DNA from: Acidobacteriota bacterium
Lineage (GTDB): Bacteria; Acidobacteriota; UBA6911
Direction: 5' to 3'
Assembly: GCA_963664705.1 (NCBI GenBank)
Contig: OY761556.1
Span: 5,760,001-5,824,000 of the forward strand
DNA: 64,000 nt
Shown here: one piece after another, positions 40,101 through 51,545 of the stretch
Layout of the letters: every line of letters begins with the position of its first letter
Numbering within the stretch: the stretch's first letter is position 1
The notes under the pieces: generated by a model
Seen by the model: the letters and a program-made list of their open reading frames with translations, nothing else
What the model was told of the DNA's origin: nothing
Database searches by the model: none
Made by a program: the position numbers and the translations under genes

Positions 40101-40226
40101 ATCAATTATCCATTGGCACATTCTGAATTGTCAGAAGAACGCGGACGAGTGCAGTATGTGACATATCAGCTCGAAACCGGCCTTTTCAAAACCGAAACCC
40201 GCTTTGTCGAGATCGTTTTCAAGTGA
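37182..40226 (+). CDS. Ser/Thr kinase with TM, TPR and C-terminal DUF4185-like domain
   Basis: IGRGGMGIVY, VALK, HRDIKPSN, DFG, GTPRYMSPEQ; TM; TPRs; YLYAYG...LIVARAP...WRFYSG...WNWYLGK...RPEGPWS. Confidence 0.88.
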   Translation: MNEDSLLGQLVDEFTSRVREGKPPDVEEYVNRYPQLAGRIRELFPTLMLLEGIGVTRCGTATQAMASPLSENSVFGSYHIKREIGRGGMGIVYEAVHALLEKKVALKVLPVGTLAGADQLERFFREARMAAGLHHTNIVSVFDVGQVAGTPYYAMQYIEGSSLDQILHIMQSASGQDAVDPSARIQAGLPGSAEDYFSWVSGIGMQAAEGLAYAHERKIIHRDIKPSNLLLDNQGVLWIADFGLARKIEDPAMTQSGVMLGTPRYMSPEQAESTRRTVDQRSDIYSLGATLYELLTCRPVFEGKTPQEVLSQIVTREPVAPRRLNPDIPADLAIIVMKAMAKRPDDRYQSARDLADDLEHWRKMEPINARPIGPFGRTIRWCRRNPRVSAITAAAIAVIVLLTGIYIAGMTKKNREIQAALSRAELGTAAVQAALRDDSQAYIRRATEIARLDQVMHGSENIELLPQAVNDLLIIQFSQKKESPEIRQVLAESEKRALEMARRAVDVHDARFVESIGLLGEYFEGKNDLHQAEWLYRQALALARPLPENRGVIERLTNKMKSLSEKRVELLQKEAESALNSGEIAKAGTIYREALKIRREISGGEDIRDVILERNLGSALVESGQLEEGEKVLRNNYRLCLTKLGKDNPSTQMVVRSLISLYATWKKQPEKIAEYCAALPHPEIVSIKELGAQSFTESGEGPFSAAWNGKQVWALGNTAGPGTTSSSWLWNDAGQKGDKLGPWRQRKDEHGRSLSLLPLTADEDEFNRARADTRCRENCQEYWNITPGPIIPLPGNKGALLFYGKNFIRPGDIFKNRSTVGTSIAIWKDPTAPAARKDLRPGAPEPTLLFQQPEPSIGIQAFAWANYLYAYGRTPDQGDQLIVARAPLDEALQRGAWRFYSGYGRWSEAWQEAVPVMKGYRGSIDWNWYLGKLVRVSNHFPSDNMLSISTSDRPEGPWSQSQDIPLGHRPDSRINYPLAHSELSEERGRVQYVTYQLETGLFKTETRFVEIVFK

Positions 40227-40384
40227 ATTTTTATATTCCTCAGTTCATCTTTGCAAAAAGAGCTGGAATTCAAGTTTGCCGGACAATGTCCAATTTACGC
40301 CGGGACTGCAGTTACGTGGGCAGGTACGCCAAAGCCCAAGGATTTACGATTACACATGATGGGCGGTCCGCGGTTCTCGATATG

Positions 40385-40576
40385 TCCGAGAGACATCAGA
40401 TCGAATTTCGAGCCGAGGCCTTCAACGTCACAAATAGCTTGCGCCTGGGCAATCCGGATACAAACTTGAGCAGTGGGACCTTCGGCAAGATTACCTCAAG
40501 TGCAAATCCTCAGGGCCTTCAGACTGGTAACAATGGCGGCAGGGTCATGCAGTTTGCTTTGAAGTATATTTTTTAG
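40385..40576 (+). pseudogene. 3' remnant of an Oar-like TonB-dependent receptor
   Basis: ERHQIEFRAEAFNVTNSLRLGNPDTNLSSGTFGKITS...RVMQFALKYIF; the rest of the gene is absent. Confidence 0.8.
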
Positions 40577-40594: not shown

Positions 40595-40685
40595 AAAAAC
40601 GTCACTAATTTCGCGGATGGTAACGAATGGCTTCCAGACCAGCCCCGCAACATTTGTGTCAATTCGTGGAATTAGTGGCGTTTTT
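40595..40685. repeat. REP-like palindrome overlapping the LysR stop codon
   Basis: AAAAACGTCACTAATT...CGAATG / CATTTG...AATTAGTGGCGTTTTT. Confidence 0.55.
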
Positions 40686-41610
40686 CGCAGCCGGGTTTTC
40701 GCAGTGGTTGGAGTTTGTTCGCCGTTTCCTTCAACAAATCCCTTAGCCAAATATGCCCTGGGTCCTGGTCCTGATAACGATGCCACTGAAGGCACTGGGT
40801 AACTTTTGGAATGTCAAAAGGAGGGGGAATTAGCCTCAGAGGCAGGTGTTGTGCGCAAAGCCGGGCTATTCGGCTCACAACCGTTGTTATTCTGTTGGTT
40901 CCCACAACCAGCCGGCACGCAGATTCGAAATCCTGTGTAATGACTTCTATTTTTCTTGTCTCTCCGTAATGTGTTGCATACCACTCTTCAAAAATTGCCT
41001 GAGCCGTCCCGAAATGAACCGCGATGTGGCCCATGTTGACGAACTGGCTTGAGGAAATTCTGTTTCCAACTATCGGGTTGTCGCGCCACACCACACAGGT
41101 GTGGGTATCTTCGAAGAGCGGTTCCTTCGGATGCGCCCTCAAGGCATGAATGGATGGACGGACAAAGAAATCGATGCCGCCCTTCTCCAGTTTCTGTTCG
41201 ATGTGCTCATCAAGCCGCACAAGTTCAAATCTGATTCCGGGCGCCTTCCGCGCAGCTTCCTGCATGGCCTGAGGCATCAAAACAGCGGTCACATAGTCGG
41301 ATACGGCAAGGCAGAATTTCCGGTCGGAAGCAGCCGGATCGAATGCCGCTTTCGAAGCGACGGTGTGCTGGATCTGCATCAGGCAACTTCTTACCGGCTG
41401 CACAAGGCTTTCCGCCAGCGGCGTCAGGACCATTCTGCGCCCCGCGGGAGCCAACAATTCATTTCCGAAGTACTTTCGAAGGCGCGAGAGGATTATGCTG
41501 GTCGCCGGCTGACTTAAATGGAGCCGCTCGCCGGCGCGCGTGACACTCTTTTCCGTCAACAAGGCATCCAGTGCTACAAGCAACCCGATATCGAAATTGT
41601 CCAGATCCAT
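40672..41610 (-). CDS. LysR-family regulator, NodD-like
   Basis: DIGLLVALDALLTEKSVTRAGERLHLSQPA...RLRKYF..ELL...GRRMVLTPLAESL, FDPAASDRKF...SDY, QWHRYQDQDPGHIWLR. Confidence 0.9.
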   Translation of the reverse strand: MDLDNFDIGLLVALDALLTEKSVTRAGERLHLSQPATSIILSRLRKYFGNELLAPAGRRMVLTPLAESLVQPVRSCLMQIQHTVASKAAFDPAASDRKFCLAVSDYVTAVLMPQAMQEAARKAPGIRFELVRLDEHIEQKLEKGGIDFFVRPSIHALRAHPKEPLFEDTHTCVVWRDNPIVGNRISSSQFVNMGHIAVHFGTAQAIFEEWYATHYGETRKIEVITQDFESACRLVVGTNRITTVVSRIARLCAQHLPLRLIPPPFDIPKVTQCLQWHRYQDQDPGHIWLRDLLKETANKLQPLRKPGCEKRH

Positions 41611-41622
41611 AAGGCCTCAGGT

Positions 41623-41637
41623 ATTTAAGGTTTTAAT
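41623..41637. promoter_or_regulatory. LysR box (T-N11-A; ATT-N9-AAT)
   Basis: ATTTAAGGTTTTAAT in the AT-rich divergent region 12 bp from the lysR start. Confidence 0.5.
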
Positions 41638-41765
41638 TACAATACATATGAAATATCTATTCCACAAATGGAAAAAATTCATGTACATTCGCATTGTGGG
41701 CAATTCCAGTTTCAGCCAGGAAGAATGGAATACTGCCCGTCAATCAGCAAATCGGGAGTTATCCA

Positions 41766-42596
41766 ATGGCATCTTCAGAATTACCTCCGCTCAGTCCAGA
41801 AGAACAGCGAAGATCCTACGCCAAATACTATAAAAGGCCGGTTTCGCCGGATCCCGCGCATCTGGCTTTGATGGACATGCCCTGCGACCCCTCAAAAGCC
41901 GTATATCCGGAGCAGATGAATGACCTTCTCAATCCCGGCGATCTGTCGGTGGAGATTGGGTGGTGCAATCTGCCCAACGGCGCGGGCTTTATCGCCAACA
42001 GGAACTTCTACAAAAATGTGACGGCAGAGATGATCGACTGGTGGTTCGCCTGGCATCCGCTTGACGGCTTGCGGTACCGCATTTGGTATCCGCCGCAACA
42101 CGCGGGAATTGATCTGAAGCCCGAAGGCCGGGCGCGAATTCTGGATCCAGGCATCCCCGTTTCTGAGAAGAATTGGGGGGTAACCCATTTTGTTACCGAA
42201 GACTGCGATTGTGGAATGGAAAACATCGAAATCACATTTCTGTCGCCTCGAGATTTCGGATTTGATATGACGCGGTGGCAGGAACCGTACGTTTCCACTT
42301 TCGCAGGCGGCTTCGGCTGGTCCACACCGGCTGGGCATACGGAGCATCCCATAAAGGCACCTTCTTTAATGTGTCATATTTTTCGAAATATCCCGGGCGG
42401 TCTCGAACACCGAACGCGCTTCTGGATCGGTTATCGGATGTCCAGCGGCAAGCCTGAACTGGTCCTGCCTCCGGGCATCGCAGTTCCGGCAATAGCGGTT
42501 CAGGGGTTGGCAAGGCACAATGTACGGGAATTCAGTAATCTTGGCGTGCTGCTGCCGGAGATCCACGCGGAATACGGCGGGCAGCTGATCGGGTAA
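41766..42596 (+). CDS. PhlG/phloretin hydrolase family C-C hydrolase
   Basis: VTAEMIDWWFAWH...RYRIWYPPQH, THFVTED, EHRTRFWIG, ARHNVREFSNL; the H/E/H/E Zn-ligand pattern is present. Confidence 0.88.
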   Translation: MASSELPPLSPEEQRRSYAKYYKRPVSPDPAHLALMDMPCDPSKAVYPEQMNDLLNPGDLSVEIGWCNLPNGAGFIANRNFYKNVTAEMIDWWFAWHPLDGLRYRIWYPPQHAGIDLKPEGRARILDPGIPVSEKNWGVTHFVTEDCDCGMENIEITFLSPRDFGFDMTRWQEPYVSTFAGGFGWSTPAGHTEHPIKAPSLMCHIFRNIPGGLEHRTRFWIGYRMSSGKPELVLPPGIAVPAIAVQGLARHNVREFSNLGVLLPEIHAEYGGQLIG

Positions 42597-42630
42597 GCAT
42601 AAATACGTTCGAATCAGTTTTGGAGGGGGC

Positions 42631-42852
42631 ATGAGTGCCACTATTGAGATCAATCTGGATGAATGCACTGGCTGCAAAAATTGTGTTGAGGCTTGCTTTG
42701 TAGATGTGATGCGATGGGACGATGACGAAGAAAAGCCGGTTGTCGCATATGAACCGGATTGCGTCTGGTGTTTTACTTGCGAAATCAACTGCCCCGCTCA
42801 ATGCATCAACGTCGTACCTCAAATGCCGGGACAACTCGTAAATCCGTACTGA
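42631..42852 (+). CDS. 2x[4Fe-4S] ferredoxin (AprB-like small subunit)
   Basis: CTGCKNCVEAC and CVWCFTCEINCP. Confidence 0.9.
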   Translation: MSATIEINLDECTGCKNCVEACFVDVMRWDDDEEKPVVAYEPDCVWCFTCEINCPAQCINVVPQMPGQLVNPY

Positions 42853-42881
42853 GCGTCGTCCGCAAACAAAGGGAGTCATAC

Positions 42882-45128
42882 ATGGTAGAGAAAGCCAAGA
42901 ACTCAACAGCATACGATACAGACGTTCTTATCATCGGCGGCGGCTTCGGAGGCCTTTCGGCAGCGATCCGGATTAAAGAACTGTCCCCGGAATCCAGTGT
43001 GCTGCTCGTCGATAAACAGACAATTGGCTGGGGAGGAAAAGCGAACAAAGGGGCCGGCGTTTTATGGGTCCTTGCCCCCGGAGATGACATCGATGCCTTT
43101 GCGGATTTCCACGTAAAGAACATAGGGATGTACCTGAACGACCAGGATCTGCTGTATGCCATGGCCCGGGAGTCATACGGAGCGGCGCAGAAGCTCGCGG
43201 ATTGGGGCGTTAAGGTGATGAAGACTCCGAATGGAGATCTTGATGTCAGCCGGCTTCCTTTCGGATGGTCCCTGGCGGCCGCCGACTTGGATATGATGCA
43301 GCCGCTTAGGGCAAAGGCGGTGAAACTCGGAGTCAAGCTGTTGGACAAGACTCATGTGGTCGATTTGCTGAAACAGGAAGGACGCGTAACCGGCGCAGTC
43401 GGCTTCAATCTCCTGGATGGGGGATTCGCGGTCTTCAACGCAAAGGCCACGATATTGGCCAACGGAGATTGCGATTTCGGCGTTATGCGAATGTGGGCTA
43501 ATGCCACCGGAGACGGCATTGCAGCCGCCTTTAATGCCGGAGCGGAGATGCGGAATGCCGAATTCGGCAACTTTTACGATGTCACCAACAAAGGCACAGG
43601 CATTCCGATCGTTTTCGGTTTTAACTCTCTCTGGAACGCGCAGGGGGAGAATATAAGCGCCAAATACATCCATGGACCGCAGCCGGATATCCCGATTTCC
43701 ATCATTCTCGGTATGGAGAAAGAGGTCATGGAGGGAAGAGGACCTATCTATTTTGACCCGGCTGAGTTTGCGAAAAGCATGGGTGGCGGCGGCGGGGGAA
43801 TATTTCAATGGGACCGGCCTCATACCAAAGCGCTTTTTGCCTGTGATGCAAAGAAGGCACAGCAGTATGGCCCGCCACCGGCAGAGAAAATAGAAGTTTC
43901 TCTTGGATTCACAGGCGAGTTTTCCGCAATCAGAGTAGACAGCGAAATGCAAACAACCCTCCCGGGTCTGTGGGCAATCGGAGATACCAGCTATGCGGGA
44001 TCTGCATGGGCCGGCGCTGCAGAGGCGCCGCCGGGCAGATTGAGAGGCTCCGGCCTGATGAACGCTTTGATATCCGCTCTGATGTCTGCCCGGTCCGTGG
44101 TTGAGCACGCAAAAGAGGCCTCCCCTACCATTGCGGATGACAACCAGGTCGCCGCTCTAAGGGAGAAAATTTTTGCGCCTCTGAACCGTGACGGCGGATA
44201 CGCGGCTTCGGAAGCCATACGAAGCATTCAGGAAGTAGTTGTACCGGTGAAATACAGCATGCGCAGGAACAAGGAAAGACTGGAAGAAGCCTTGTCCAAG
44301 GTGGCAGCGGTCAAGGAGAGGCTGCCCGAATTATCCGCCAAGGATCCGCACGGTCTCGTCCGCTGTCATGAGGCTTCCTGCATTGCACTGTGTGCCGAAA
44401 TCGGCTTTAAGTCAGCGCTGGCGCGCACTGAAAGCAGGGGTTGGCATTACAGAGAGGATTATCCCCAGCAGGACGACAAAAACTGGCTCAAGTGGGTCAT
44501 TGTAAAAAAAGTGCAGGACAGCATGGTCGTTACCACCGAGCCCATTCCCAGCGAGCTCTATAAACTAAAGCCAGGACAGGTTACCGCTGTGCCTGACGCG
44601 GTTGTCGAACACGATGAGCTTATCGGGGTGACCCCCGAAATGATCGATTGGTGGTGGGTCAATATGGAAAAGGGATACCCATTGTGGGAACCAACCGATC
44701 ACAAATCCTTTGTTTGGGAAGTGCCGCCGCCGGTTGGAGGATATCTGGGAGCAATCCAGATCGCAGAGGAAAAAATGGGGCCAATGCCGCCGATGAAAAT
44801 TCGCATCCGGTGGGACGACCCCGCCACCTGCTCCATCCCTTGTATCTACGAGCATGCGATCGTTGCAGCTGGGGTTAGTCCCGATGGGAAGGTGGGCGCT
44901 ATGATTCTCCATGAGTGGGAAAAGAGTCCCCGGGGAACCAGGATGCGCTCCACGATGCGTTTCCCGGGTCCCGTTCCACCCGGCTTCGCCGAGATCTGGA
45001 AAGCTCACGACAGGGCGGAAGTATCGACCTTCCCCGGATTCCTGCCCGATCTCTACAGACTATGGCAGTCTGTGAAGGATCCGGCAATCAACAGGCAATG
45101 CTCATTGAAGGTGAAGAAAACTTCGTAG
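42882..45128 (+). CDS. AprA/SdhA-like FAD oxidoreductase fused to a C-terminal PhlG-like domain
   Basis: DVLIIGGGFGG, AKATILANG, TGDG, PGLWAIGD, ARTESRGWHYREDYP; then GVTPEMIDWWW...LWEPTDH...IAEE...AHDRAE from about 44600. Confidence 0.88.
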   Translation: MVEKAKNSTAYDTDVLIIGGGFGGLSAAIRIKELSPESSVLLVDKQTIGWGGKANKGAGVLWVLAPGDDIDAFADFHVKNIGMYLNDQDLLYAMARESYGAAQKLADWGVKVMKTPNGDLDVSRLPFGWSLAAADLDMMQPLRAKAVKLGVKLLDKTHVVDLLKQEGRVTGAVGFNLLDGGFAVFNAKATILANGDCDFGVMRMWANATGDGIAAAFNAGAEMRNAEFGNFYDVTNKGTGIPIVFGFNSLWNAQGENISAKYIHGPQPDIPISIILGMEKEVMEGRGPIYFDPAEFAKSMGGGGGGIFQWDRPHTKALFACDAKKAQQYGPPPAEKIEVSLGFTGEFSAIRVDSEMQTTLPGLWAIGDTSYAGSAWAGAAEAPPGRLRGSGLMNALISALMSARSVVEHAKEASPTIADDNQVAALREKIFAPLNRDGGYAASEAIRSIQEVVVPVKYSMRRNKERLEEALSKVAAVKERLPELSAKDPHGLVRCHEASCIALCAEIGFKSALARTESRGWHYREDYPQQDDKNWLKWVIVKKVQDSMVVTTEPIPSELYKLKPGQVTAVPDAVVEHDELIGVTPEMIDWWWVNMEKGYPLWEPTDHKSFVWEVPPPVGGYLGAIQIAEEKMGPMPPMKIRIRWDDPATCSIPCIYEHAIVAAGVSPDGKVGAMILHEWEKSPRGTRMRSTMRFPGPVPPGFAEIWKAHDRAEVSTFPGFLPDLYRLWQSVKDPAINRQCSLKVKKTS

Positions 45129-47846: not shown

Positions 47847-49865
47847 TTGGCAGACGGATATGCAGGAAAAATATTGAGAATCAACCTGACGTCCAAGTCA
47901 ATCTCTACGATCGATACCTCCAAGTATGAAGAGTTCGGCGGGGGGTATGGGATGGGGACCGCCATCTTCTGGGATCTGGCGGTCGCGCCGGGCGAATGGG
48001 ACCTGAAGGATCCATACGATCCACGGAACGTAATTCCCCTTATGGTTGGCCCTTTTGCTGCTACTGGAGTTCCTGGCGCAGGCAGAACGAGCATTTGTGG
48101 CCTGTCTCCCGAGACATTTCCAACCTCCGAATTCTGGCGGGGTAATTTAGGCGGTCAATTCGGGACCATGACAAAACTTGCAGGTTGGGATGGAATAGTA
48201 ATTGAAGGCAAGGCCGATAAGCCGGCTTGGATCAATATCATCAACGACCAAGTCAGGATCGAGGATGCCAAGGAACTCTGGGGCCTGGATACTTGGGAGA
48301 CACAGAACCGAATCACTTCAATGGTGTGCGGAAGAGTTCGATTTGGTGAAGAATGGCAACAGATCGGGGATGCCTATACCACTGCACGACCGCAGATCGT
48401 CTGCATCGGGCCAATAGGCGAAACCAAGTCAAGACTCGCCGCTCTGATTTCCGGCAGTGGAATCAGCGTACGAGTGGGTGGCTATGGGGCGGTTTTCGGG
48501 GCCAAGAACTTAAAGGCTGTGAGCGTAATCGGGACCGGCGGGGTGCAGGTCTCAAATCCGGCGCATGTACTGGAAACCAGACTCCAGCATCTGCAATCAG
48601 GGAGTGTTTTCCCGCCCCGCCCCGGGTCGGCATCCTGCTCACCTTGCTTAAGCGGAGACCGGCGTCGGAGCAACTATTACGGCGGTGAGACCATGTGCGC
48701 CTGTCAGGGATGGCTTGGTGGCGACAAAAGCCAGACGGATCAAGACAAGGCTTCCGAAGCATTGATAAAATATGGCCTCAGCAGCTGGTCTGCCCATTGG
48801 CACCGGGACTCCTTTGAGCTTTCCGAGGCGCCGGAATTTTTTCATGGGAAAGTGCCATCGGACTTTGGCCTGGGCTCATATCTCCAGTATCTGTATGAGC
48901 AGGGAGTGTTGGGTCCGGGGAAGCAGATCGATTCGTATCCGCTGCCCATGGATCAGAGAGGAGAGTTCAGTTTCCGCCTTGCCTTTTTGGAGGCAGTTGC
49001 CCACCGTACCGGGATTGGCGATGCCCTGGCCGAAGGTTGCTGCCGGGCCGCTCAGAAATGGGGACGGCTGGAAACGGACAAGGACAACGGAGCCCTGCGC
49101 CTTCCAGCCTGGGGAGCAACAAGCCACTGGACGATGCCCTATGTTGAATGGGCTTATGCCTACATGCTCGGAGCAGGGGATCCTGCCTGGCATACATTCA
49201 TGCTTCGCACCAGCGCTCCCCGCGACGGCACATCCCTGGAAATATCTCTGGCGAATCTGGCAAAGAAGACTATCCCCTATACCGACGACATTTTCATGTT
49301 CAACTATGCGTGGAAGGGAGAGGAGGCTTGGAAAACCGGCATCTATTCGCCGCATAAAGCCAAGCAGGTGGCGTGGGGTCGGCACTATTCTTCATTTTGG
49401 AACGAATCCATGGCTTTTTGCGAGATGTTCCATCACGCGCTGGGCAGCAATAGTCCGGAATTGGAAATGGACTACTACAGAGCTGTCACCGGGAAAAAGG
49501 ACTCCTTTGCCGATACGATGCGAATCGGTCAAAAAATCTGGACCTTGGAGCGCGCCATCCGTGTCATGCACGGAAGAAGTCGGCAAACGGAAGACTTATT
49601 TCCATATATGTATAAGCCCGGAGCGTCAGGCAAGACAAAGTACGGCGGAGTGCCGATCTATGAAAACGGCAAATGGCATTCCGATTTGGCGCCGGACATG
49701 TACCTGGACCGAAAGGGCGTGGACGACTTCAAAACCCACTTCTATACGCTCGAAGGATGGGATAAGGAACATGGCTGGCCTACTCGCGGGACACTGGAAG
49801 AGTTGGGATTGGGAAGAATAGTGAAGGTACTCGGTGACCATGGGAAACTGGGAATCGGCCAATAA
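47847..49865 (+). CDS. Aldehyde:ferredoxin oxidoreductase (AOR/WOR, YdhV-like), copy 3
   Basis: TTG start with GAGGGG RBS; close paralog of copy 2; no adjacent Fe-S gene. Confidence 0.92.
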   Translation: MADGYAGKILRINLTSKSISTIDTSKYEEFGGGYGMGTAIFWDLAVAPGEWDLKDPYDPRNVIPLMVGPFAATGVPGAGRTSICGLSPETFPTSEFWRGNLGGQFGTMTKLAGWDGIVIEGKADKPAWINIINDQVRIEDAKELWGLDTWETQNRITSMVCGRVRFGEEWQQIGDAYTTARPQIVCIGPIGETKSRLAALISGSGISVRVGGYGAVFGAKNLKAVSVIGTGGVQVSNPAHVLETRLQHLQSGSVFPPRPGSASCSPCLSGDRRRSNYYGGETMCACQGWLGGDKSQTDQDKASEALIKYGLSSWSAHWHRDSFELSEAPEFFHGKVPSDFGLGSYLQYLYEQGVLGPGKQIDSYPLPMDQRGEFSFRLAFLEAVAHRTGIGDALAEGCCRAAQKWGRLETDKDNGALRLPAWGATSHWTMPYVEWAYAYMLGAGDPAWHTFMLRTSAPRDGTSLEISLANLAKKTIPYTDDIFMFNYAWKGEEAWKTGIYSPHKAKQVAWGRHYSSFWNESMAFCEMFHHALGSNSPELEMDYYRAVTGKKDSFADTMRIGQKIWTLERAIRVMHGRSRQTEDLFPYMYKPGASGKTKYGGVPIYENGKWHSDLAPDMYLDRKGVDDFKTHFYTLEGWDKEHGWPTRGTLEELGLGRIVKVLGDHGKLGIGQ

Positions 49866-49988
49866 GGAATTGCCTCTCAACTTAGAATGGAATCATTCCG
49901 TCATTGGTTGAATTATGCGAAAGAGTTTGCCTGATGACGACTTGTTCTCATAAAATACATTCCACTAATTCATTCCGAGGAGCTTAGG

Positions 49989-51545
49989 ATGCGCAATAAT
50001 GAAAATGAAGGGACTCGCGTCGACAGACGAAGCTTTTTAAAACAAACCACAATTGCGGGAATGGCGGCAGCGCTTCCAAACGCGCTACCGGCATCGAACC
50101 TGCTTGCCCAGACGGCTGCAAGTGCGGTTAAGATAAGCGCGAAACCGAGCGGCGGGACAAGGAAAATGCTTTTCCTCAATAATGTCCCACAGCAGTTCGG
50201 GAAATTGATCGAATCCGTACAGGCAATACCCAACCTGGATCTCATTCCCGTCACTGCATCAAAATTTAAAACCACTCAGGAAATCGTCAGCGCCATTCAA
50301 AGCCAGAGTCCGGATATCGTCCTGATGCGCATTCCGCGAATTGGGATGGCGCCTTCCGTGATGGCTGATGCGCTGGAAGGCCTGGAAATGCCCGTCGTTG
50401 TGCTGCCGGAAAATCTCGGTTTGATCATGGGTGAAGCGGACATGGTGGCGCAAATGCGAACAAAGGGCGTCAATGCCATGCTTGCGACGGACGAAGCAAA
50501 GGCGATAGAACTCTCAAGGATTCTGGCTGCGCCCGGCGTTCTCGCAGGTAAAAAGGCAATTATTTACGGCCGGCCTTTCGACTCAACCAGCGTAACCGCG
50601 CATAATCTCAATTCAGACATCATCTATAAGCGCACCGGCATCAGGATTGAATATCGGCCGATTGAAGATCTGAAAACGCAATTGGAAGGCGTATCTGTTG
50701 CAAGCGCGCAAAAGGAACTCGAGCGTTGGAAGAAGGAAGCCTATCGAGTTGATGACGTCACCGATAAAGCGCTCCTCGACACCTGCCGCGTCTATGTTCT
50801 GCTGCGTTCCATTATCGAAAAGGAAGCGTTGTCGGGCATCTCTATTGATTGCCTGAACTTCTCCTTTAACGCTCGATGGAAGGACGGGGCTCTCAGCGAT
50901 AACCGCATGATTCCGCTTCCCTGTCTAGCATTCACCCGGTTGCGCGATGAAGGCTATGCCGCACCGTGCGAAGCCGACGTGGTTGGGATGCTTTCGTCGA
51001 TGGTTTTGCAGGAAATTAGCCAAAAACCCTCCTACTTCTGCAACGTGTCTGAAATCAATTCGCAGAAGTCTCATGTTATTCTCCGCCACTGCGTCGCTCC
51101 CTTGAAACTGCTCGGCCGAGATAAGCCCGCCCTGAAATATAGAATCCGCGATTATCACGGAATGGGAGGCGCCACGCCGGAAGTGCAGTTCCCCGTCGGC
51201 CTTGAAATCACCATGGGCGGATTCACCAAAGATTTGAAAAACTTCGTGGTATGGCCGGGAAGGATTCAGCCGACAGTAATGGACACCAAAACTCCATCCT
51301 TCGCCAATGCCACTGGCGATGCGGCAAAAATGCTCAAATACTGCTCAAACAGAGCTGAAGTCAAAATCAAGGAAGTTGACCGCTTCATGCAGAACATTGC
51401 GGAAATCCACCACACAATGGTCGCCGGCAACTATGCGAGTGCGCTTCGAGATGAAATGATCCGGGCGAATGCAAACATCGTTGGACCAATGGATGCATCG
51501 GCCCCGGCGGTAAATGCCGCGGCTCCGGCCAAGAGCAAAACATAA
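49989..51545 (+). CDS. Tat-signal protein with an L-fucose/L-arabinose isomerase-like fold
   Basis: DRRSFLK signal; ISIDCL, PCLAFTRLRDEG..APCEADV, LRHC, DYHG, CSNRAEV...HHTMVAGNY. Confidence 0.7.
   Translation: MRNNENEGTRVDRRSFLKQTTIAGMAAALPNALPASNLLAQTAASAVKISAKPSGGTRKMLFLNNVPQQFGKLIESVQAIPNLDLIPVTASKFKTTQEIVSAIQSQSPDIVLMRIPRIGMAPSVMADALEGLEMPVVVLPENLGLIMGEADMVAQMRTKGVNAMLATDEAKAIELSRILAAPGVLAGKKAIIYGRPFDSTSVTAHNLNSDIIYKRTGIRIEYRPIEDLKTQLEGVSVASAQKELERWKKEAYRVDDVTDKALLDTCRVYVLLRSIIEKEALSGISIDCLNFSFNARWKDGALSDNRMIPLPCLAFTRLRDEGYAAPCEADVVGMLSSMVLQEISQKPSYFCNVSEINSQKSHVILRHCVAPLKLLGRDKPALKYRIRDYHGMGGATPEVQFPVGLEITMGGFTKDLKNFVVWPGRIQPTVMDTKTPSFANATGDAAKMLKYCSNRAEVKIKEVDRFMQNIAEIHHTMVAGNYASALRDEMIRANANIVGPMDASAPAVNAAAPAKSKT

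What the first reader, a model, noticed from the sequence alone, without database searches (positions are those of the whole stretch)
40672..45128. Candidate anaerobic flavonoid/acylphloroglucinol cleavage system: NodD-like LysR, PhlG, ferredoxin and flavoprotein::PhlG
Seen: a NodD-like LysR with an ATT-N9-AAT box is divergent from a tight three-gene operon (PhlG-family hydrolase, 2x[4Fe-4S] ferredoxin, AprA-like flavoprotein carrying a second PhlG domain). Known: NodD proteins sense flavonoids, and PhlG and phloretin hydrolase are Zn-dependent C-C hydrolases that cleave acyl groups from phloroglucinol rings. In gut anaerobes phloretin hydrolase acts after reduction of a chalcone or flavanone by other reductase families. 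Inference: an AprAB-like pair supplies the redox step and two hydrolase domains supply cleavage. I know of no described pathway with this organisation.
Basis: partly seen in the sequence, partly recalled or inferred. Interest (0 to 1): 0.85.

Follow-up and report, generated by a model that had tools for sequence, protein, structure and literature searches.

The report
Ferredoxin-flavoenzyme fused to polyphenol hydrolase
This acidobacterial gene cluster encodes an uncharacterised iron-sulfur flavoenzyme fused to a hydrolase domain predicted to bind zinc and cut carbon-carbon bonds, with a second such hydrolase beside it, and it likely reduces plant flavonoids without oxygen so that the hydrolases would release phloroglucinol, a step now credited to unrelated enzymes.

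Summary
Observation confirmed. A LysR faces phlG1–ferredoxin–flavoprotein::phlG2. Both PhlG domains hit PF18089 and keep four putative Zn ligands; PhlG2 folds like phloretin hydrolase. The fusion is one clade (25 of 76 GTDB loci). Unfused trios occur in Dehalococcoidia, Desulfatiglandales and Holophaga, and the flavoprotein fused separately to a long hydrolase (888 aa). It is neither AprA nor SdhA: cut-offs fail and their catalytic residues are replaced.

The polyphenol link rests on two things. First, 22 of 76 loci carry phloroglucinol-pathway, chalcone isomerase or flavone reductase genes. Second, in a published tannin-fed soil metaproteome, three Holophaga paralogs (7–13 peptides) were 4–13 times more abundant than the reductase FCR credited with ring opening (one replicate, no induction control).

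This genome has a phloroglucinol-type cluster about 27 kb away but no CHI, FLR or Fcr ortholog. Best reading (0.5): ferredoxin-fed reduction of flavanone- or chalcone-type substrates to dihydrochalcones, then hydrolysis. Against: 17 of 26 same-genus carriers lack the ring-cleavage genes, and substrate and direction are untested. My ten literature searches found no description. The scan noted this module before on other genomes.

The parts
40672..41610 (-). LysR regulator of the NodD/NahR/DntR-related group; likely controls the operon
   Evidence: PF00126+PF03466; 39-43% to NodD2 and unnamed LysRs; divergent LysR in 17 of 25 fused loci at a strict threshold
41623..41637 (.). ATT-N9-AAT (T-N11-A) box 1, predicted LysR site
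   Evidence: ATT invariant in the 20 aligned intergenic regions; AAT in 18, GAT in 2
41655..41669 (.). ATC-N9-AAT box 2 (ATT-N9-AAT in most relatives), predicted second LysR site 32 bp from box 1
   Evidence: ATT-N9-AAT found in 15 of 20 within 90 bp, visible further on in two more
41766..42596 (+). PhlG1, long phloretin-hydrolase/PhlG-family C-C hydrolase; putative Zn ligands H112, E145, H251, E255
   Evidence: PF18089 230 bits; Phy 5xe5 E 8e-30; ligands in 36, 36, 35, 35 of 36; 65% to two H. foetida PhlG proteins; below NCBIfam PhlG cut-off, 96 of 600
42631..42852 (+). 2x[4Fe-4S] ferredoxin, predicted beta subunit of the flavoprotein
   Evidence: Fer4 families; present in 25 of 25 fused and 32 of 32 type-B loci
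42882..44567 (+). SdhA/AprA-superfamily flavoprotein domain (residues 1-562) of an uncharacterised clade
   Evidence: best fold match PAPS reductase 8a8o, TMt 0.81, 24% identity; K53 65/66, K56 64/66, W205 66/66, E346 66/66
44568..45128 (+). PhlG2, short PhlG-fold domain fused in frame (residues 563-748); putative Zn ligands H607, E630, H709, E713
   Evidence: (67, 64, 67, 67 of 67)

Best explanation
The flavoprotein and its ferredoxin likely form a soluble two-subunit reductase that would convert a flavanone- or chalcone-type plant polyphenol into an acyl-phloroglucinol (dihydrochalcone), which the fused short and the neighbouring long PhlG-family domains are predicted to hydrolyse to phloroglucinol and an aryl acid. 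Shown: gene order, fusion, family assignments, conserved putative metal ligands, replaced Sdh/Apr catalytic residues, linkage to polyphenol genes elsewhere, and protein-level expression of Holophaga paralogs in tannin-fed soil. Inferred: electrons pass ferredoxin -> FAD -> substrate by hydride transfer, as in fumarate reductase, into a pocket rebuilt for a phenolic substrate (Lys53/Lys56, Tyr232, Trp205, Glu346); fusion channels the product to PhlG2; two hydrolases cover different acyl groups; the LysR senses a substrate; in this genome phloroglucinol would enter the SDR-cyclase-3HCDH-BKACE-CoA-transferase cluster about 27-32 kb downstream. It would work like Fcr + Phy of gut bacteria but with an unrelated redox enzyme.
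For: Rosetta stone twice: flavoprotein::short PhlG is one clade (SH-aLRT 99, 26 rows; quick tree) and flavoprotein::long Phy is a separate fusion (three 888-aa proteins). 67 of 70 loci with the flavoprotein have a PhlG-like domain fused or in the locus. 18 of 76 loci hold the cyclase or BKACE genes, 5 of 76 CHI or FLR homologs, 22 either. Neighbours were tested: FLR-like gene vs PDB 7d38 E 6e-141 (that 7d38 is FLR is recalled); SDR vs 5g4k E 2e-75 (5g4k = phloroglucinol reductase per PMC8084988 suppl.); Chalcone_N; cyclases keep the W-x-Y of DPGC. In L001, 90% identical, the module abuts the cyclase-BKACE-CoA-transferase genes. This genome has that cluster at C1:5831760-5837509 but no CHI, no FLR ortholog (37% over 105 aa) and at best 33% to the Holophaga FCR-like enzyme, so PhlG1 has no known supplier of dihydrochalcones. 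H. foetida has 5 paralogs and 7 PF18089 genes. In PMC8084988 suppl. file 6, proteins whose best UniRef hits are three of these paralogs (identifiers matched) had 7, 7 and 13 peptides and NSAF 4.3e-4 to 1.3e-3 on days 10, 14, 20; FCR had 1 peptide, 1.0e-4, day 14 only; PGR 1.1-1.6e-3. The paper's expressed PHY is, by eye, identical to the gene beside one paralog.
Against: No enzyme of this clade has been assayed. 17 of 26 same-genus carriers lack the cyclase and BKACE genes with the queries used. Only 2 of 25 fused loci have them nearby. Four loci (L030, L034, L035, L068) already carry an OYE 42-44% identical to the Holophaga FCR-like enzyme next to the module, which argues that the flavoprotein does something other than Fcr, or handles another stereoisomer or class. 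Four of five H. foetida paralogs have no adjacent PhlG gene. The proteome signal is from replicate B only, housekeeping proteins of that genome show the same pattern, and the feed was a catechin polymer, which Fcr-type chemistry does not accept (PMC13515148). The expressed paralogs are only about 39-44% identical to family members, not orthologs of the fused protein. The SDR in this genome's cluster is not a clear PGR (best hit 1vl8; 5g4k E 7e-47).
Confidence: 0.5

Rival explanations
1. The same unit is a polyphenol redox enzyme running oxidatively: it would abstract hydride from the benzylic carbon next to a phloroglucinol ring (C4 of catechin or epicatechin, or of a ring-opened diarylpropanol), the short zinc domain would add water to the quinone methide, and the acyl product would then be cleaved. 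This would be the missing catechin-to-taxifolin entry step.
For: PMC12203004 states that catechin is converted to taxifolin by unknown enzymes. The Holophaga paralogs were abundant on an (epi)catechin polymer together with CHI, PHY and PGR. The module sits inside clusters that already have FLR, CHI, an FCR-like OYE and Phy (L034, L035).
Against: This genome has no CHI, FLR or Fcr ortholog to carry taxifolin further. Low-potential 2x[4Fe-4S] ferredoxins suit reduction better (general knowledge). Type-B loci have only the short domain, which would then have to be both hydratase and hydrolase.
Confidence: 0.15
2. The unit acts on acyl-phloroglucinol or related phenolic compounds mainly as a detoxifying or electron-sink system (for example antimicrobial acyl-phloroglucinols or aglycones freed during sugar scavenging); the ring is released and left for other microbes.
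For: Module in 26 of 29 same-genus genomes but ring-cleavage genes in only 9. Two hydrolases would suit removal of two acyl groups; PhlG removes only one acetyl from DAPG (PMC8003664). A GH43-family gene follows the operon.
Against: All 9 genomes with the ring-cleavage genes also have the module, and 10 of 32 type-B loci carry them next door. MAG incompleteness may hide genes. DAPG hydrolysis needs no redox partner. This reading overlaps the best one in chemistry and differs in purpose and substrate.
Confidence: 0.2
3. The substrate is not a polyphenol: the PhlG-fold domains cleave some other aryl or 1,3-diketone and the flavoprotein serves that unknown pathway.
For: 54 of 76 loci show none of the polyphenol markers within the fetched flanks. 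PhlG2 is only about 22% identical to PhlG1 and lacks the N-terminal ~55 residues. Pocket residues differ between clades.
Against: Many of those loci are short contigs. Where recurrent catabolic neighbours are seen they are phloroglucinol and flavonoid genes. The family is expanded in H. foetida.
Confidence: 0.12
4. The pair is a divergent APS/PAPS reductase or succinate dehydrogenase/fumarate reductase and the hydrolases are passengers.
For: Best structural and sequence match is the PAPS reductase alpha subunit 8a8o; databases name these proteins succinate dehydrogenase/fumarate reductase.
Against: All curated cut-offs fail (aprA 98/642, sdhA 118/727, PRK08275 202/587). The RSH flavinylation motif is replaced by WGGKANK; the FrdA substrate His positions read Tyr232 and Thr344; the AprA SAIN motif reads GVLW (roles of those residues recalled). 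No membrane anchor, sat or qmo family appeared among the 53 recurrent neighbour families annotated. Two independent fusions to hydrolases.
Confidence: 0.03

Closest known systems
Fcr (flavanone/flavanonol-cleaving reductase) + phloretin hydrolase Phy of Eubacterium ramulus / Flavonifractor plautii, feeding the PGR-DPGC-TfD-TAL pathway (PMC10470551, PMC13515148)
   Same: Redox enzyme paired with a PF18089 hydrolase; linkage to CHI, FLR and phloroglucinol genes in relatives.
   Different: Fcr is an NADH-dependent old-yellow-enzyme-type protein; here the redox part is an SdhA/AprA-superfamily flavoprotein with its own ferredoxin, fused to a short second hydrolase; no Fcr, CHI or FLR ortholog in this genome.
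APS/PAPS reductase AprAB (PDB 1jnr, 8a8o)
   Same: Soluble alpha (FAD + capping + helical domain) and beta (2x[4Fe-4S]) layout; TMt 0.81 to 8a8o; no covalent-FAD histidine.
   Different: 23-24% identity; catalytic motifs replaced; beta subunit 73 aa without the long AprB tail (tail recalled); fused Zn-hydrolase domain; no sulfur-pathway neighbours seen.
PhlG (Pseudomonas DAPG hydrolase, 3hwp) and M. abscessus phloretin hydrolase (5xe5/5xey)
   Same: Bet v1-like fold and the His/Glu/His/Glu metal set in both domains.
   Different: PhlG1 is only a distant homolog (NCBIfam PhlG 96/600). PhlG2 is a 186-residue form of a separate subfamily with no solved or assayed member found.
Cber/Ber benzyl-ether reductases and tetrahydrodaidzein reductase of Eggerthellaceae (named in PMC13515148; their fumarate-reductase-like family is recalled)
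   Same: Flavoproteins that reductively break a benzylic C-O bond of polyphenols; a functional precedent.
   Different: Sequence relationship not tested here; they are not known to me to have a dedicated ferredoxin gene or a fused hydrolase.
NodD / FdeR / DntR LysR regulators (PMC11495319)
   Same: 39-43% identity to NodD1/D2; divergent layout with tandem T-N11-A boxes.
   Different: Equal identity to unnamed LysRs; boxes are ATT/ATC-N9-AAT, not the nod-box ATC-N9-GAT (motif recalled; none found); ligand unknown.

Membership tests
PhlG/Phy C-C hydrolases (PF18089): PhlG1 | Pfam hit over cut-off | tested here: met
   230 bits vs 22.7
PhlG/Phy C-C hydrolases (PF18089): PhlG1 | His/Glu/His/Glu metal ligands (positions in PhlG recalled; paper not held) | tested here: met
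   H112, E145, H251, E255 align with 3hwp/5xe5 residues; 35-36 of 36
PhlG/Phy C-C hydrolases (PF18089): PhlG2 | Pfam hit, Bet v1-like fold | tested here: met
   26.1 bits; AF2 pLDDT 88.8, Foldseek top six Phy/PhlG
PhlG/Phy C-C hydrolases (PF18089): PhlG2 | Four metal ligands plus conserved Tyr and His | tested here: met
   H607, E630, H709, E713, Y599, H677 align with PhlG1 H112, E145, H251, E255, Y104, H204; 64-67 of 67
PhlG/Phy C-C hydrolases | Hydrolysis of an acyl-phloroglucinol, Zn bound | not testable with these tools
   needs assay
2,4-diacetylphloroglucinol hydrolase PhlG (NF047887 equivalog) | Curated score cut-off 600 | tested here: not met
   95.9 bits
APS reductase AprAB | TIGR02061/TIGR02060 cut-offs | tested here: not met
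   98/642 and 23/136
APS reductase AprAB | Active-site SAIN Asn and His (recalled) | tested here: not met
   GVLW and FTGE at those places
APS reductase AprAB | Soluble FAD subunit + 2x[4Fe-4S] subunit, same fold | tested here: met
   physical complex not shown
Succinate dehydrogenase / fumarate reductase | Covalent-FAD His motif, dicarboxylate His residues, curated cut-offs | tested here: not met
Fcr-type flavanone reductase | Old-yellow-enzyme (Oxidored_FMN) domain | tested here: not met
   no such domain in P0004
Fcr-type flavanone reductase (works like) | Reductive C-ring opening to a dihydrochalcone | not testable with these tools
   needs assay
NodD | Closest to NodD by sequence | tested here: inconclusive
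   39-43% to NodD and to unnamed LysRs alike; PDB best hits 9x6w/9iib carry only the name LysR (that they are NodD is recalled and was not confirmed)
NodD | nod box ATC-N9-GAT repeats (recalled) | tested here: not met
   none in 41611-41765
NodD | Flavonoid-dependent activation | not testable with these tools
   needs reporter or EMSA

The most novel reading that the evidence does not exclude
An APS-reductase-like flavoenzyme family, not the known old-yellow-enzyme reductases, is the main redox gateway for tannin monomers and flavonoids in anoxic soils and sediments. One or more paralogs carry out the still unassigned (epi)catechin entry step, with the fused zinc domain taking the reactive quinone-methide or acyl intermediate straight from the flavin site.
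Probability: 0.2. Interest if true: 0.85.

Novelty: new variant of a known kind. Interest (0 to 1): 0.63.

Why it matters
Anaerobic polyphenol breakdown bears on carbon storage in peat and wetlands, and several steps have no enzyme assigned (catechin entry and alphitonin cleavage, PMC12203004; A-ring loss, PMC13515148). This family has at least 759 clusters at E<=1e-100. Databases call it succinate dehydrogenase. It occurs in a cultured type strain (H. foetida DSM 6591) and already shows up unrecognised in a published tannin metaproteome. It gives a concrete, clonable candidate for one of those steps and would add new chemistry to the SdhA/AprA superfamily.

Tried and rejected
Complex prediction of an unfused flavoprotein with its short PhlG was not available; nothing was folded. 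Promoter/terminator scan gave no more sites than shuffles. PMC13416013 (benzene flavoprotein) is a different family (abstract). The PhlG structure paper is not held. PMC12203004 suppl. file 7 lists only pre-selected catechin genes, had no UBA6911 rows in the held (cut) text, and could not test the flavoprotein; its other supplements were not read. One supplement of PMC8084988 was too large to read. The UBA6911 genome paper has no mention of phloroglucinol, flavonoid or polyphenol. The tree is the quick IQ-TREE run, not the finished search; partial rows and one paralog with an internal stop were left out. Literature searches that found no description of this module: (open-access library only).
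Full report
Observation. The four genes are real and lie as described: LysR 41610-40672 on the minus strand, then PhlG1 (41766-42596), a 73-aa ferredoxin (42631-42852) and a 748-aa flavoprotein::PhlG2 (42882-45128), with gaps of 155, 34 and 29 bp. Pfam gives PF18089 at 230 bits for PhlG1 and 26.1 bits (cut-off 22.7) for residues 577-690 of the fusion. Each gene is single-copy in the genome at high identity. The weak second domain passed three more tests. HHalign of the long and short profiles gave 98.5%. A profile of the short type found phloretin hydrolase at E 3.6e-7. An AF2 model (pLDDT 88.8) had Phy and PhlG as its top six Foldseek hits. Both domains keep the four residues that align with the PhlG metal ligands (ligand identities recalled; paper not held): H112/E145/H251/E255 in 35-36 of 36 long sequences, H607/E630/H709/E713 in 64-67 of 67 short ones.

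The regulator. It is 39-43% identical to NodD1/D2 and equally to unnamed LysRs. DntR structures also score E about 1e-38 (5ae5 is DntR per PMC11495319, passages). So 'NodD-like' places it in a subfamily that senses aromatics and no more. The ATT-N9-AAT box is at 41623-41637 and a second ATC-N9-AAT at 41655-41669. At least one ATT-N9-AAT is present in 20 of 20 aligned upstream regions, against 11.8% of shuffles. No ATC-N9-GAT nod-box repeat is present.

The flavoprotein. Its closest solved relative by sequence and fold is the PAPS reductase alpha subunit 8a8o (24% identity, TMt 0.81). It fails every curated cut-off (aprA 98/642, sdhA 118/727, PRK08275 202/587). The RSH flavinylation motif is replaced by WGGKANK, the two FrdA substrate histidines align with Tyr232 and Thr344, and the AprA SAIN motif reads GVLW (the roles of these residues are recalled). 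Across 66 family members K53, K56, D137, W205 and E346 are present in 64-66. This is a separate clade with its own pocket. A profile search found 759 clusters at E<=1e-100 among 7999 candidates scored; none of the 120 listed has a specific name.

Conservation. 93 of 554 candidates matched the C-terminal region, nearly all as 742-789 aa fusions. The GTDB scan gave 76 loci (118 stretches matched, 98 confirmed, best 80 kept). Of these, 25 are fusions, 32 are short PhlG-ferredoxin-flavoprotein (mostly Dehalococcoidia and Desulfatiglandales), 10 have a long Phy beside the flavoprotein (including Holophaga foetida and one truncated acidobacterial contig), 6 have a short PhlG without a flavoprotein in the locus and 3 a flavoprotein without PhlG. 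All fused loci have the ferredoxin, 23 the long PhlG, 17 the LysR. The patterns came from both domains, so type-B loci were pulled by the short domain and type-A by the flavoprotein. The fusions form one clade (SH-aLRT 99; quick tree). A second, independent fusion joins a type-A flavoprotein to a long Phy in three 888-aa proteins. Among 60 relatives the flavoprotein is in 26 of 29 same-genus genomes, 0 of 7 from other genera of the family, and 1 (weak) of 24 others; PF18089 shows 26 of 29 and 0 of 31. The nearest named records are Acidobacteriota, one titled UBA6911 at 81% identity. Freshwater members of that family encode both oxygen and anaerobic respiration (bioRxiv 2021.04.09.439258, abstract), so the host need not be a strict anaerobe.

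Link to polyphenols. Recurrent neighbours are an SDR, a PF04199 cyclase, a BKACE enzyme, 3-hydroxyacyl-CoA dehydrogenase, CoA transferases, acetoacetate-CoA ligase, Chalcone_N, an FMN reductase and an OYE. The first four match the PGR-DPGC-TfD-TAL cluster of PMC10470551 (passages). The cyclases keep the W-x-Y noted there for DPGC, one SDR hits phloroglucinol reductase 5g4k at E 2e-75, and the FMN reductase hits 7d38 at E 6e-141 (recalled as FLR). 18 of 76 loci have cyclase or BKACE, 5 have CHI or FLR, 22 either. In L001 the module abuts these genes. In this genome they lie at C1:5831760-5837509, about 27-32 kb downstream, though the SDR there is a different subtype. The genome has no CHI, no FLR ortholog and only 33% to the Holophaga FCR-like enzyme.

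Published expression data. Locus L037 is the Holophaga MAG of PMC8084988 (passages; supplementary files 6 and 9 in part). The PHY that the authors found expressed is, by eye, identical to L037:9747-10580. The next gene, an 'FAD-binding protein', has as best hit UniRef UPI0002473F0A, which is the H. foetida flavoprotein of L038. H. foetida has five paralogs and seven PF18089 genes. Two more paralogs match the identifiers of two further expressed proteins. The three had 7, 7 and 13 peptides and NSAF 4.3e-4 to 1.3e-3 on days 10, 14 and 20. FCR had one peptide (1.0e-4, day 14 only), PGR 1.1-1.6e-3 and CHI 1.8-2.6e-3. All were zero without tannin. The paper does not discuss these flavoproteins in the passages I read. 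Limits: the signal is from replicate B only, housekeeping proteins of this genome follow the same pattern (EF-Ts 1.4-1.9e-3), the ferredoxin of the PHY-linked copy was not listed, and these paralogs are not orthologs of the fused protein. This shows abundance on tannin, not induction.

Evidence against a simple catabolic reading. The cyclase and BKACE were found in only 9 of 29 same-genus genomes, all nine module carriers, leaving 17 of 26 carriers without them by these queries. Only 2 of 25 fused loci have them nearby. Four loci carry an FCR-like OYE beside the module. Four of five H. foetida paralogs have no adjacent PhlG.

Mechanism. Phy-type hydrolases need an acyl group on a phloroglucinol ring (PMC8003664 and PMC13515148, passages). 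This genome has two such domains and none of the known enzymes that make their substrates. The shortest route from a common plant flavonoid is one two-electron reduction of a flavanone, flavanonol or chalcone. That fits fumarate-reductase-style hydride transfer and a low-potential ferredoxin, so I put it at 0.5. A detoxifying or electron-sink role on related compounds (0.2), an oxidative catechin-entry step (0.15; that step is unassigned per PMC12203004, passages), a non-polyphenol substrate (0.12) and sulfur or succinate chemistry (0.03) are the rivals. Substrate, direction, complex formation and ligand are all inferred.

Novelty. Ten searches of the open library gave no description; for most listed papers I saw only the listing, and subscription journals are not covered. 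The pathway logic is known, the redox enzyme family and the fusion are not, so I class it as a new variant of a known kind. The scan's own notes report the same module on other genomes; these are unchecked AI notes and were not counted as support. Interest 0.63.

Noticed in passing
L034:5015-5659, L035:1228-1875, L068:2055-2699: A third, ~214-aa PhlG-like type (30-32% to PhlG2, metal ligands kept) lies directly upstream of chalcone isomerase and the FLR homolog; a candidate for the unassigned alphitonin-cleaving enzyme. No Pfam hit at 1e-4.
   Followed up: partly
G000:C1:5831760-5837509 (L077): Phloroglucinol-type cluster whose SDR is a different subtype from PGR 5g4k (43% to the PGR-like L065 protein) and is shared with Dehalococcoidia loci that pair the cyclase with a family III CoA transferase instead of BKACE; possibly a variant lower pathway.
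   Followed up: partly
L001:2930-3310, L038:10575-10931 and 12 more loci: A 118-137 aa protein, most with an apparent signal peptide and no Pfam hit, recurs beside the module; the gene at this place was also detected in the Holophaga metaproteome.
   Followed up: partly
L036:4475-10535: Two different ferredoxin-flavoprotein pairs in tandem between two long PhlG genes.
   Followed up: no
L102:7628-9592; L027:8001-10248: One H. foetida paralog has an internal TAG stop; the fusion gene in MAG locus L027 is in several pieces.
   Followed up: no
G000:C1:4069107, 2755738, 1171675, 4171666: Four paralogs of another unnamed SdhA-superfamily clade with a GPGCDHWC motif at the flavin loop; one has a ferredoxin gene next to it.
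   Followed up: no
window 40223-40576 (+): A 117-codon ORF whose C-terminal half has six weak matches elsewhere in the genome and ends like an acidobacterial TonB-dependent receptor (recalled); possibly a gene remnant.
   Followed up: partly
window 47847-51545 (+): An aldehyde:ferredoxin oxidoreductase-family gene and a 518-aa protein weakly similar to sulfoquinovose isomerase SftI lie downstream; not among the conserved neighbours.
   Followed up: no
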